From the IMG/VR virus record IMGVR_UViG_3300028797_000093: a DNA stretch of 64,000 nucleotides; one strand, given 5' to 3'. Source of the DNA: a virus. Lineage: Duplodnaviria > Caudoviricetes. Positions within the stretch are counted from its first letter, which is position 1. Each line of letters opens with the position of its first letter. Position numbers and translations under genes: made by a program. The notes beneath the pieces were generated by a model that did not search any database, was not told the origin of the DNA, and saw only the letters and a list, made by a program, of their open reading frames with translations. This document shows, piece after piece, positions 621 through 42,979 of the stretch.

Positions 621-1047
621 GTTTAAATGATAGGGCGGCGCCAAGACTCCAGCCTGGATCACTAGAGCCGAAGTAGATGCGAACATAAGTGAAACCACAA
701 TAGAGCCCATCATTCGAGCGACCACCACGAACAGCATATGCAGTACCCGTAGCTTTATATACTATAGTTTTAAATGATAGGGCGGCGCCATCACCCCAGT
801 TGGTCCAAGAAAACGCAGCACTCAGAACAATAGAGAAAACACCACAATAAAAGCCATAACTACAGTAACCACCGTGAATAGCATAATATGAAGTACTCGT
901 AGCTTTATTTAAATGATAGGGCGGCGCCAGAGTGCCAACCTGCATAACCAAAGTAATAATATAGGTAAACACAAACGAAACCACAATAGAAACCATTACC
1001 AGAAGTACCACCACGAAGAGCATATGCAGTACTCGTAGCTTTTATAT
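621..1047 (-). repeat. DGR variable-region-like cassette cluster 1 (3 tandem cassettes, KATSTAY-type 5' end)
   Basis: Units at ~621-760, 768-907 and 908-1047 read AAAGCTACG(A/G)GTACT...CGTGGTGGT (CACGGTGGT in one)...TGTGGT...TGG...GGCGCCGCCCTATCATTTAAA on the minus strand; peptide RGG-x6-CG-x14-W-x2-GAALSFK. Confidence 0.9.
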
Positions 1048-1061
1048 ATGATTTGCTTTAG

Positions 1062-1097
1062 AAAAAATAAAAGGTGCTGATAGTTAATCAGCACCTT
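1062..1097 (-). terminator. intrinsic terminator closing the tasA/TIGR transcript
   Basis: Stem AAGGTGCTGAT / ATCAGCACCTT followed by TTATTTTTT on the minus strand. Confidence 0.8.
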
Positions 1098-1145
1098 GTT
1101 TCTTTCGATATAGTTAGATTAAATCTAGTGTTCGTGAATCATTGC

Positions 1146-3735
1146 AGAATCTTATATGTAAATATAATCGTGGCTCATGATTCTTTTGAGAAACTTAATG
1201 TTGGCTAGCAACGTGAATCTTTTGGGAACCGAAATGTTTATTTTATTCTCTAGAATCATTATATCAACTTAAATTAATTTGTAGGCGTGATTCTTTTTAC
1301 TGTTTTAATATATTTTTTTCACAATGAATCTTTTTCACCCCTATTAAGGTTGGTTTGTTGAAGTGAATCTTTGTTCTAGACTAAGATTAATCGTTCATGG
1401 TGAATCCATTTATCGTTAATAATTTATATTTTCTCAGATGATTCTTTTATATCCTCATATAAATTCCATGAATTGAATCATTTCTACTGGTTAATATAAA
1501 TCTCTAGTCAGATTCTTTTTGAATACCTAATTTAAATACACAGCTTGAATCATTCATACGATTTAATATAAATACTTTAGTTTAATTCTTGTAAAATAAA
1601 TGATGTTTATTCTTGATACCGAATCTTTGCGCCTTTGATAATATTATATCCTCTTATTATGAATCTTTCTTGGACATTAATTTATTTGGTAATTATGAAT
1701 CTTTTTTGTATAATAATATTATAGTTGCTGCTGAATCTTTCTCTTGTAATAATTTATTTTGTATTGATGAATCTTTTACCTCACATAGATTTACAATATG
1801 AAATGACTTGAATCTTTCAAGATCTGTAATGTAATTACTTATTATAAATCTCTTTAACTCTTGACATAATATTTATTGTTGGCAATGAATCTCTTGGAAA
1901 ATATAAGTTTATATCCAAACTCTTGAATCATATTTCTTTCTAAATATTATTTAATACCAATGATTCTTTTCTTTGCTTTTTAAAATTAATGATTCTGAAT
2001 GAATCATTTCGCATCAGAAATGTTATTATCGCATCTGATTCTTTCTTGCCTGCAAATGTTTATGATGATCTTCTGTGAATCTTTTGCTCTGAATAATTTA
2101 TATTATTTGGAGTGAATCATTTTTCGCATTTAATATTAGTTTTTGAGCCTCTCATAATTCCTTTAGTGTGTAATAATATTATTGGTTCTCTAGAATCTTT
2201 CTACAACAATAATTATATTCATGATACTGAATCATTAACGAGTATTAAAATTAATTTTTTGGTTTGATTCTTTCGGATGCTCTAATATTAACTTCAGCTA
2301 TTGAATCATTAAGCACTCATAATATAAATCTCACGGAGATGATTCTTGTGAGTATAATAATATAATTATATTGAATTGAATCATTAGACAATTGATAAAT
2401 ATGTTACTTATGTTGATTCTTTCGATCGCTCTAGATTGTATTCATTTAAATGAATCATTCACTAACAATAAGTTTATTTACTATATATAATTCTTTTGGT
2501 TTGTCTAAGTTAAATTATGATCTATAAATCATTTTATAGACTTAATGTTATTATATTAACTGATTCTTTATTTTGCTTTAATTTAATTACTATCACAGAA
2601 TCATTAGACATAATAAGGTTGATATTTATCATGATTCTTTTTCCATATATAAGTTTATTATCAGAACTGAATCAATTATATCTTCTAAATTTACTTTTGA
2701 CAACTAATTCTTTTGGTAGATATAATGTAAATTTTCAGCAATGAATCTTTAGGATCGCTTATAGTTTATAGGTCATTGTGAATCATTCATTGTCGTAATG
2801 TAGTTTGGTGAATTGAATCATATATGTATAATAATATTATCTAATAAGCTGATTCTTTTCTTTATATTAATATGAAGATACGCCGAGTGAATCTTTTTGT
2901 TATAGTAATTTTATCTTTGACAATAAATCACTCTGAATTTTTAATTTAATCTTGACGAATAATTCTCTTCTATTTGGTTAAGTTAATACTCTCTGCCATT
3001 GAATCTCTTATCAACCAATAATTTAATATATGCCGATGAATCTTTAGACATAATAATTTCTTCACAAGTTGTGAATCTTTTTATATGGTTATAATTTTAT
3101 TTGGGTATTTGAATCTCTTGTACTTCAAAGTGTCATCGAGTACGCTGAATCTTTTCGTTATCATAAAATTAATTAAAAAGTTTAAATCTTTTAATACCAT
3201 TTAATGTAGATTCCTCGTTTAAATCTGGCTCATTTTATGATTTTAATTTATTCTGAAAAATTGATTCATTCTTATCCATCTAATTTTATTTATAGCAGTA
3301 ATTCATTTTGAGTAGTTTAATATTATTTCAGTCGTTTAATTCACTCGATCACAATAAGATCTAATTTGCGACAATAATTCATATGAAGATCGTAAAAATA
3401 ATCAGAGATATAATTAAATTAAAACCAAGGGGATAGTAGAGTATACTATCCCCTATTTTTCTTTCAATATTCTAAAGTTTGTTATCGACTTTGAATCAAT
3501 TCATACTCAATAAGTTTATTGATTCATTTAATTCATTCAATCACGATAAAATTATTCGACGTGATAATTCATTTGTTATTTTTTAATATTATCTTGACTT
3601 TTGATTCATTTACCAGAAATAATATTTATTGTTGACAATGATTCATTCCTCGTGTATAAGTTTGTTTTTGTTCTTTAAGATTTGATGATGAATCAATTCA
3701 TATTTGATAAGTTTATTTATTCATTTAATTCACTC
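1146..3735 (-). ncRNA. TIGR-like dual-spacer guide RNA array (~65-70 units of ~36 nt)
   Basis: Plus-strand period: edge repeat TRAWTCWTT, ~9-nt variable, loop repeat TAA(T/G)NTWAT, ~9-nt variable. I count about 61 units in 1146-3415 and about 7 in 3460-3735. The array starts immediately after the stop codon of a Nop-domain gene. Confidence 0.85.
3428..3460. terminator. hairpin/terminator inside the TIGR-like array
   Basis: AGGGGATAGTA-gagta-TACTATCCCCT with T-rich tails available on both strands. Confidence 0.7.
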
Positions 3736-41556: not shown

Positions 41557-41723
41557 AGTTTCCTCCCTAAGGAATATATTATTTCTTTCTCTTTTAATAT
41601 AAAGTTTTAAGATATATAAATAATCAAATATATACTATCTAGTCAAAAAGAATTTAATGACTTCATATAACAACATAAAAGTAAATATATCTAATACAAT
41701 CTATACAGGAGGATTAATATAAA

Positions 41724-42128
41724 ATGTCTATTTTTGGAAAGAAGGATGATACCATGAGTGGAAAGCTGAAGAATCCCAATGCTCTTCGTGAAGCTTATCT
41801 ATATGAATATCTAACTGCAAGAGGACAGGAGAAGAAGTTTGTAGACTCTCCAGAAGCATCTGTAATGAAGGAAGAAGGAATGATTACAGATGAACTAATT
41901 GAGAGACTTTCTGCTGCTAAAGCAAATAATAAGAATCTAGAAATGACTGTTCTTCATCTTGCTAAGGCAGAAGATGATCCTCTATTTGATCGTCTTGTAG
42001 CAGCTAGAGCTGAAGAGAGAAATATCATGAATGAACTGATTGCTAAATATCAGGAGTCTGCTGTAGAACTTACTGATAAGTATGTGGATAAGTTCCTGAA
42101 TCAGGAGCTTCCTAAAGAATTTAAATAA
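41724..42128 (+). CDS. hypothetical, probable virion protein
   Basis: 134 aa; AACA-N6-TA at 41672; terminator 42143-42169. Confidence 0.65.
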   Translation: MSIFGKKDDTMSGKLKNPNALREAYLYEYLTARGQEKKFVDSPEASVMKEEGMITDELIERLSAAKANNKNLEMTVLHLAKAEDDPLFDRLVAARAEERNIMNELIAKYQESAVELTDKYVDKFLNQELPKEFK

Positions 42129-42177
42129 AATAATAATAATATAGAGGTAGGTCTATAAAGATCTACCTCCTTCTTTT

Positions 42178-42979
42178 TATTGTGATTATTTTTATCAAAG
42201 TGGTGGTACACACTATTCCTATCGTGGTGGTCACTCGAGCAGTGGTTTTATTTGTGGTTTCACTTGTGTTGGTCTAGGTGGCAACTCCAGTGCGACAGGC
42301 TGGTACTATGGCGCCGCCCTATCATTTAAAACTATATGTGTATTATTTTTCTCAAAGTAGTGATACTCACTATTCTGTTCGTGGTGGTCACTCTGGTAAT
42401 GGTTTTTATTGTGGTTTTACTTTTGTTCACCTCATCCGAGGCTCTGGTTTTGCCAGCTGGGGAGTTGGTGCTGCCCTATCATTTAAACCTCTTCTTTTTT
42501 ATTGTGATTATTTTTATCAAAATAGTGGTACTCGTTATGCTTTTCGTGGTGGTTATTGTAATATTGGTTTTGATTGTGGTTTTGCTTTTGCTGGACTCAG
42601 TTATTCTACTGCTGTTGCCAACTGGAATCTTGGCGCCGCCCTATCATTTAAACCATCTTTTTTATTGTGATTATTTTTCTCAAAGTAGTAATACTCATTA
42701 TGCTTTTCGTGGTGGTAGCTCGGGCAATGGGCCCCGTTGTGGTTTTGTTTGTGTCTATCTATACTACAACTCTAGTTATGCCCTCTGGTATGTTGGCGCC
42801 GCCCTATCATTTAAACCAGTCTTTTTATTGTGATTATTTTTATCAAAGTGGTGGTACAAATTATACTTTTCGTGGTGGTGCCTCGAGCGGTGGCTTCTAT
42901 TGTGGGGTTTTCTATGTTGGCCTCCACCGCAGCTCTGGTTATGCCAGCTGGTCCATTGGCGCCGCCCTATCATTTAAAC
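42178..42979 (+). repeat. DGR variable-region-like cassette cluster 5 (5 tandem cassettes)
   Basis: Units ending CTATCATTTAAA(C) at ~42330, 42488, 42653, 42817 and 42979; starts directly after a terminator. Confidence 0.9.

What the first reader, a model, noticed from the sequence alone, without database searches (positions are those of the whole stretch)
621..42979. Dispersed library of 21 silent DGR variable-region cassettes: a candidate archive of receptor-binding variants
Seen: five clusters (3+6+1+6+5 units of ~140-155 bp at 621-1047, 23051-23994, 27893-28032, 37621-38580 and 42178-42979). All units differ and lack an RBS/start; neighbours are often out of frame with each other. Every unit I translated is stop-free in the same frame, giving RGG-x6-CG-x13/14-W-x2-GA(A/S/T)LSFK. 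Variation concentrates in positions 1-2 of codons ending in C/T and back-projects to a template like RGGNSNNGxNCGxFYVNLNNNSSNANWNIGAALSFK. Established: this is the adenine-specific AAY to NNY signature and the C-type-lectin C-terminal motif of DGR targets, where the VR normally sits at the 3' end of an expressed gene. Inference: these orphan VRs are a stored repertoire that can be recombined into a tail-fibre gene through their conserved ends, like silent pilS or vls cassettes but filled by a DGR. I know no description of this in phages. No RT, TR or target gene lies in this window.
Basis: partly seen in the sequence, partly recalled or inferred. Interest (0 to 1): 0.95.

Follow-up and report, generated by a model that had tools for sequence, protein, structure and literature searches.

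The report
Phage archive of receptor-tip variants
A giant rumen phage mutates the tip of its host-binding proteins with a reverse transcriptase and also keeps 54 apparently silent spare copies of other tip versions around its genome; related phages carry such stored versions in the working gene, so the phage appears to remember and reuse old solutions, which I found described for no virus.

Summary
Confirmed and extended. The 21 units belong to 54 orphan variable-region (VR) cassettes in 13 intergenic arrays of a 244-kb PBS1/SA1-like jumbo phage with rumen relatives. About 90 kb beyond the window lies a complete DGR: template (TR), reverse transcriptase and two tail-protein targets whose VRs differ from TR only at adenines. 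Cassettes carry the targets' flanks, not TR's, so they are copies of the expressed gene end. They show the adenine bias (69% vs 12-36%) plus many non-A changes, and none has a stop (17 expected by chance). Of 60 target VRs from related phages, 10 match a stored cassette almost residue for residue. These include a strain whose own TR cannot produce the allele (23 non-A mismatches) and a strain lacking TR and RT at the locus. Orthologous arrays turn over between strains 95-97% identical. Best reading: a DGR invents tips, copies are archived, and archived tips are gene-converted back (0.7). Direction, enzyme and silence are inferred; no reads were available. I found no paper describing this. This scan noted similar silent libraries before in Saccharibacteria and in other jumbo phages.

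The parts
621..1047 (-). Cassette array, 3 units, all with the target-1 type 5' arm (YKATS)
1071..1097 (-). Intrinsic-terminator-like hairpin directly 5' of the 621-1047 array
   Evidence: -16.4 kcal/mol
23012..23043 (.). Terminator-like hairpin of gene 22059-23015, bounding the 3' end of the array
23051..23994 (-). Cassette array, 6 units (5 target-2 type, 1 target-1 type)
23999..24030 (-). Terminator-like hairpin of gene 24034-24564; its T-tract merges with the first cassette's 5' arm
   Evidence: -20.0 kcal/mol
27893..28032 (-). Single cassette (target-1 type) between two convergent terminator-like hairpins
37580..37606 (+). Terminator-like hairpin directly 5' of the array
37621..38580 (+). 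Cassette array, 6 units (target-2 type). Units near 38072 and 38559 share 54- and 51-nt identical half tracts with cassettes in distant arrays
38587..38622 (.). Bidirectional terminator-like hairpin bounding the 3' end of the array
42144..42169 (+). Terminator-like hairpin directly 5' of the array
42178..42979 (+). Cassette array, 5 units (target-2 type). The rest of the system lies outside the window, on the genome's minus strand (the window's plus strand): TR at C1:5211-5314, RT at C1:3708-4967, target 1 at C1:1940-3505, target 2 at C1:93-1682, and eight further arrays with 33 cassettes
   Evidence: outside parts

Best explanation
Two-tier diversification of a phage receptor-binding tip. (1) SHOWN: a canonical DGR rewrites the last ~35 codons of two tail-protein genes at TR adenines. 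(2) SHOWN: the 3' ends of those genes, with 20-45 nt of gene-specific 5' arm and 8-17 nt of 3' arm, exist as head-to-tail copies in intergenic arrays, usually just after a co-oriented terminator. INFERRED: arrays are seeded by microhomology at the T-rich terminator tail, by DNA recombination or by RT template jumping, and then refilled and reshuffled by homologous exchange through the conserved arms. (3) SHOWN: whole VR cores are shared between cassettes and expressed genes. INFERRED: cassettes are gene-converted back into the targets, restoring ready-made, previously functional tips, including scaffolds the current TR cannot make and in strains that lack TR and RT at the locus. The DGR then overwrites or patches the recalled allele, and new versions are archived. 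The recombinase is unidentified.
For: Arms match the targets (5' median 29 nt; 3' 8-17 nt exact) and not TR (at most 1 nt). The sister species' cassettes carry their own targets' arms. Stops 0/54 vs 16.9 simulated; changes at six structural codons 14 vs 91. 10 of 60 target VRs match a cassette at 34/36 residues or better, all others at most 26/36; 7 of the 10 keep the normal gene end. DNA-level cases: L054 target 1 equals a cassette 4 kb upstream except for 2 tail bases, yet has 23 non-A mismatches to its own intact TR, while target 2 has 3. L036 target equals this genome's cassette C1:216139 at 105/108 nt, with 17 non-A sites off the TR to which its sister target conforms. L056 lacks TR and RT at the locus, and its target is 108/108 identical to a cassette 2 kb away. 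The matched cassettes of L054 and L056 have diverged orthologues in other strains' arrays (9 and 13 differences), so they look older than the transfer. Overlap at the 3' junctions is only about 5-15 nt, too short for an assembler path without read support (inference). Mosaic half tracts of 54 and 51 nt vs a null maximum of 33; identity within arrays equals identity between arrays, 0.599 vs 0.596. 11 of 13 arrays begin after a hairpin of -15 to -21 kcal/mol, and 12 of 13 are co-oriented with the upstream gene.
Against: Identity between target and cassette does not itself give direction. TRs differ between strains (5 versions), so a non-conforming target could be a relic of an earlier TR. Absence of stops could reflect recent capture from functional genes. 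Three of the 10 matches (P0145, P0151, P0158) run on into array sequence and may be assembly chimeras; four of the seven clean ones were seen as protein only. This genome's own two VRs are TR-conforming and absent from its archive (17 and 22 differences from the nearest cassette). No RecA-family gene or other obvious recombinase was found.
Confidence: 0.7

Rival explanations
1. One-way archive or by-product: target 3' ends are repeatedly copied into safe intergenic sites and never reused. Non-conforming targets are relics of earlier TRs swapped between strains.
For: Arms are target-derived. TRs vary in blocks between strains. Arrays turn over fast, so little decay is needed to explain the missing stops.
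Against: It needs a target to stay 14-23 non-A sites off an intact TR while its paralogue conforms (L054, L036, L058/L059). It also needs target and cassette to stay identical while the cassette's orthologue in another strain diverged by 9-13 nt. No cassette among 107 anchored units in related loci has a stop (the three flagged are false anchors inside an unrelated gene). About 8 kb of such DNA is kept in this genome, and arrays occur in two species.
Confidence: 0.15
2. The main use of cassettes is to refresh the template: cassette blocks recombine into TR and change the scaffold that the DGR mutates (a multi-scaffold DGR).
For: Five TR versions share their flanks but differ in blocks also seen in cassettes. 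In L060 a cassette is fused to TR's 3' flank and has replaced TR.
Against: Cassettes have lost most TR adenines (69% changed), lack the TR 5' flank, and match expressed genes rather than TRs. The L060 event destroyed TR. This may occur alongside the best explanation.
Confidence: 0.07
3. Cassettes are remote DGR targets or mis-integrated TR cDNA, mutated in place.
For: They keep the GC-rich homing motif and the adenine bias; 13 of 107 have a 3' tract of 30 nt or more that conforms to this TR.
Against: No cassette conforms fully to any of five TRs (minimum 2, median about 14 non-A sites). They carry target arms that TR lacks, and none has the downstream hairpins that follow both targets.
Confidence: 0.04
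4. Assembly artefact: population VR variants were concatenated into arrays.
For: The source is metagenomic, and some chimeric joins are visible (L046, P0158).
Against: Arrays are reproduced at 99.4-99.7% identity in separately assembled contigs (L026, L027), the L038 contig carries the same three cassettes, and arrays are embedded in unique intergenic flanks at 13 loci with linkers absent from the targets.
Confidence: 0.02

Closest known systems
Diversity-generating retroelements (Bordetella phage BPP-1 mtd/TR/brt; TaqVP; Treponema denticola multi-target DGR)
   Same: RT with the GxxxSQ motif, TR, C-terminal VR with A-only differences, C-type-lectin-like target fold (TaqVP top Foldseek hit, E=4e-7), downstream hairpins.
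   Different: Surveyed DGRs have at most 8 tandem or 7 remote targets, all genes and all A-to-N only (PMC5758913); VRs outside ORFs were isolated oddities (PMC3521204). Here there are 54 gene-less VR copies with non-A scaffolds that exchange with the targets. No Avd above cut-off.
Treponema pallidum tprK (also Borrelia vlsE and Neisseria pilE/pilS, the latter two from my own knowledge)
   Same: Silent partial-gene donors with conserved ends; segmental gene conversion into an expression site (PMC8480903); a similar donor count.
   Different: Viral; dispersed over 13 loci; donors are DGR-mutagenised copies of the expressed gene and turn over between close strains, whereas bacterial donor sets are largely inherited. 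The target is a host-binding protein, not an immune antigen.
Invertase tail-fibre switches and shufflons (Mu Gin, P1 Cin, p15B Min; own knowledge, search)
   Same: Promoterless alternative C-terminal segments of a phage receptor-binding gene.
   Different: Those are 2-6 segments in one invertible locus with crossover sites and a site-specific recombinase. Here copies are dispersed up to 200+ kb away, head-to-tail, the donor stays in place, and ends are ragged.
Zeta crAss-like phages Lera and ct1yV3 with three TR-VR pairs (PMC12386605)
   Same: Phage DGR with extra repeat pairs showing non-A changes.
   Different: A few extra templates inside the DGR locus, not a genome-wide set of target-derived cassettes.

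Membership tests
DGR (core locus) | DGR-type RT with (I/V/L)GxxxSQ and YxDD | tested here: met
   RVT_1 E=2e-20, phrog_1423 E=7e-103; LGFYTSQ and YMDD in the translation
DGR (core locus) | TR-VR pair differing only at TR adenines | tested here: met
   12 A/0 non-A and 14 A/0 non-A; also 16/0 and 17/0 in L057 and L059
DGR (core locus) | VR at the C-terminus of a C-type-lectin-fold protein | tested here: met
   AlphaFold2 pLDDT 89; only Foldseek hits at E<1e-3 are TaqVP chains, Mtd next
DGR (core locus) | GC-rich homing motif differing between VR and TR, plus downstream hairpin | tested here: met
   VR and TR diverge right after the GC motif; hairpins z=-5.6 after both targets
DGR (core locus) | Accessory gene Avd (common, not universal) | tested here: not met
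   No PF22296 hit over cut-off; an 89-aa ORF upstream of TR has no meaningful family hit
DGR remote targets (for the cassettes) | VR within a gene and A-only differences from TR | tested here: not met
   No gene body or SD; 2-25 non-A differences each
Silent-cassette gene conversion (tprK/vlsE/pilS type) | Partial-gene donors flanked by homology to an expression site | tested here: met
Silent-cassette gene conversion (tprK/vlsE/pilS type) | Expressed alleles equal to or mosaic of donors | tested here: met
Silent-cassette gene conversion (tprK/vlsE/pilS type) | Non-reciprocal donor-to-expression-site direction | tested here: inconclusive
   Donor retained in L054 and L056 and older orthologues exist, but no time series
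Silent-cassette gene conversion (tprK/vlsE/pilS type) | Donors transcriptionally silent | not testable with these tools
Invertase shufflon (Gin/Cin/Min) | Contiguous invertible segments with crossover sites next to a site-specific recombinase | tested here: not met
   13 dispersed same-strand arrays with variable ends; only an HNH gene, absent in several strains, lies next to the DGR

The most novel reading that the evidence does not exclude
A self-writing genetic memory in a virus. Receptor tips that a DGR invented and selection approved are actively captured, possibly by the DGR RT jumping onto terminator-ended transcripts, stored as silent arrays, traded between strains, and recalled into the tail gene. 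It would be an acquisition-and-recall system for host range, a phage-side counterpart of CRISPR memory, with its own machinery.
Probability: 0.35. Interest if true: 0.95.

Novelty: new variant of a known kind. Interest (0 to 1): 0.86.

Why it matters
DGR mutagenesis is blind and overwrites the previous allele, so a phage loses a working tip each time it diversifies. An archive with recall removes that cost, lets the phage jump between scaffolds that one TR cannot reach, and keeps switching possible after RT loss. It would bring bacterial-style antigenic variation into phages and couple it to a retroelement. The cassettes are also a record of past host-binding solutions: 136 distinct cassette sequences were collected here, which makes receptor-phage coevolution in the rumen directly testable. 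DGR finders that demand A-only differences inside an ORF near the RT would miss such arrays, so the arrangement may be commoner than the literature suggests.

Tried and rejected
Whole-genome cassette counts for the sister species were not possible (L052 not held). No RecA and no Avd were found. The HNH gene beside TR was rejected as a required component, because it is absent from L052, L054, L056, L059 and L060. The TIGR-Tas array at 1098-3740 as a guide for cassettes: 10 of 62 nine-mers hit the VR set vs about 5 expected under a uniform-base null that is too low for AT-rich DNA, so no support. Local tandem duplication with drift was rejected (within-array identity equals between-array). A 3'-biased TR-conforming patch (13 suffix vs 5 prefix tracts of 30 nt or more) is only suggestive. 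Control: 75 loci with 30-59% identical target homologues, mostly small phages and prophages of gut Clostridia, show no orphan arrays within 5-10 kb. Six literature searches for silent or orphan DGR cassettes, or phage gene-conversion cassettes, returned no description; the library lacks most subscription papers.
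Full report
Setting. 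The window is C1:92340-156339 (minus) of a 244,302-bp, 31.6% GC virus contig, estimated 99% complete. It encodes multi-subunit RNA polymerase subunits whose best cultured matches, at about 33% identity, are Staphylococcus phage SA1, Listeria phage LPJP1 and Bacillus phage PBS1. One close relative is labelled bovine metagenome, and distant homologues of the target gene occur in rumen Lachnospiraceae, Ruminococcus and Butyrivibrio genomes. A rumen Bacillota host is my inference.

Observation. The 21 units are present exactly as described. A genome-wide scan finds 54 orphan units in 13 arrays, two full genes ending in the same motif, and one template.

The DGR (outside the window). On the minus strand of C1 lie TR (5211-5314), a 419-aa RT with LGFYTSQ and YMDD motifs (3708-4967), and two paralogous targets of 521 aa (1940-3505) and 529 aa (93-1682) that match PHROG 5302, tail protein. 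Their VRs differ from TR at 12 and 14 adenines and nowhere else. Both are followed by the same GC-rich hairpins (z=-5.6). The AlphaFold2 model (pLDDT 89) matches only the DGR variable protein TaqVP at E<1e-3, with Mtd next. The core is a canonical DGR without a recognisable Avd.

What the cassettes are. They mismatch TR at 68.6% of A sites against 36%, 12% and 14% of C, G and T sites (p=2e-237), so they passed through DGR mutagenesis. They are not TR cDNA: each has a 5' arm (median 29 nt) and a 3' arm (8-17 nt) found in the targets and absent from TR; 38 are of target-2 type, 15 of target-1 type and one unassigned. They are not remote targets either, since none conforms to any of five TR versions seen in this lineage and none carries the hairpins. 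The non-A changes come in recurrent blocks, some of which match other strains' TRs. No cassette has a stop, against 16.9 expected if the same number of non-A changes fell at random, and six structural codons change 14 times against 91 expected; all scored indels are whole codons. Neighbours are no more alike than distant cassettes (0.599 vs 0.596), so arrays did not grow by local duplication. Two pairs in distant arrays share identical 54- and 51-nt halves (null maximum 33). In the second pair the remaining core differences fall at positions 1-2 of TR's AAY codons, as expected if one allele was partly rewritten by the DGR in the gene and both versions were stored.

Where they sit. Eleven of 13 arrays begin directly after a terminator-like hairpin of -15 to -21 kcal/mol, and 12 of 13 are co-oriented with the upstream gene. 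The terminator T-tract often merges with the cassette's T-rich 5' arm, which suggests microhomology-driven seeding. RT template jumping onto RNA 3' ends and DNA-level recombination followed by selection for silent sites both fit; I cannot separate them.

Relatives. Metagenome searches gave 136 distinct cassettes. Strains 95-97% identical in the flanks hold wholly different cassettes at the same loci (L029, L031, L039, L047). One strain has a five-cassette array where this genome has a small ORF (L032). A sister species, 86-87% identical, has arrays of 9-10 units whose arms match its own targets. Seventy-five loci with more distant homologues of the target show target and TR only, within the 5-10 kb examined, so the arrays look like a property of this jumbo-phage lineage.

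Exchange between archive and gene. Of 60 target VRs, 10 match a cassette at 34/36 residues or better and the rest reach at most 26/36. Three of the 10 run into array sequence and may be chimeras; seven keep the normal gene end. DNA is available for three of the seven. In L054/L055, target 1 equals a cassette of the adjacent array except at two tail bases and is 23 non-A sites away from the strain's intact TR, while target 2 is 3 away. In L036 one target equals this genome's cassette at C1:216139 (105/108) and the other conforms to this genome's TR. In L056, where cassettes stand in place of HNH, TR and RT, the target is 108/108 identical to a cassette 2 kb upstream. The shared sequence at the 3' junctions is only about 5-15 nt, so these joins should need read support. 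The L054 and L056 cassettes have orthologues in other strains that differ by 9 and 13 nt, which favours copying from an older cassette into the gene. In L060 a cassette has replaced TR by recombination, and the same target VR appears in three database entries.

Verdict on mechanism. Shown: the DGR, the target-derived cassettes, protein-level constraint, turnover, and transfer of whole cores between cassettes and genes. Inferred: direction, silence and enzyme. No RecA was found and no reads could be examined. I put archive plus recall at 0.7, one-way dead archive at 0.15, template refreshing as the main role at 0.07, remote targets at 0.04 and artefact at 0.02.

Comparison with what is known. 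The largest curated DGR survey I read reports at most eight tandem or seven remote targets, all genes with A-only differences (PMC5758913); VRs outside ORFs were isolated cases (PMC3521204). The logic resembles tprK gene conversion from donor cassettes (PMC8480903). The cassettes fail the remote-target and shufflon tests, meet two tests of the silent-cassette class, and leave two open. My searches found no paper on a phage or DGR with such an archive. Earlier notes of this scan report similar libraries in Saccharibacteria and other jumbo phages; I did not check those. Both parts are known kinds and the coupling is undescribed, so I rate it a new variant with high interest.

Noticed in passing
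window 1098-4934 (-): The 397-aa ORF at 3741-4934 scores above cut-off for NCBIfam TIGR_Tas_endo (E=5e-39) and is followed by a long array of ~36-37-nt units that ends at the terminator before the 621-1047 cassettes. No sign that its spacers target the VRs.
   Followed up: partly
L060:1100-1260: A cassette core is fused to TR's 3' flank, replacing TR while RT stays intact: a natural template knock-out by recombination with the array.
   Followed up: yes
L056:3600-4460; contig of P0126: Two strains have no RT gene between the HAD gene and target 1; in L056 cassettes fill the gap.
   Followed up: partly
G000 TR, L057:2600-2704, L059:1537-1641, L052, L054: TR itself is highly polymorphic in blocks between close strains (12-22 non-A differences) while keeping its flanks and AAY codons.
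   Followed up: partly
G000 C1:5872-6579: An HNH endonuclease gene sits between the cassettes and TR in some strains only; probably a mobile homing endonuclease.
   Followed up: partly
L058:5403-6875; contig of P0122: Some strains have a third large gene (about 520 aa) right after target 2, possibly a third paralogue; G000's contig ends there.
   Followed up: no
window 47765-48076 and 52023-52324: Two near-identical promoter/RBS plus terminator-like blocks about 4.25 kb apart (repeat families D9 and D14), each possibly enclosing a short ORF.
   Followed up: no
G000 C1:34077-34318 vs L032:220-986: A ~68-codon ORF in this genome is replaced by a five-cassette array in a relative, a 14th array site.
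   Followed up: partly
all cassettes: Non-A changes are dominated by C-to-T (328 of 860). The nearest cultured relatives include PBS1, which has uracil DNA (own knowledge); any link is untested.
   Followed up: no
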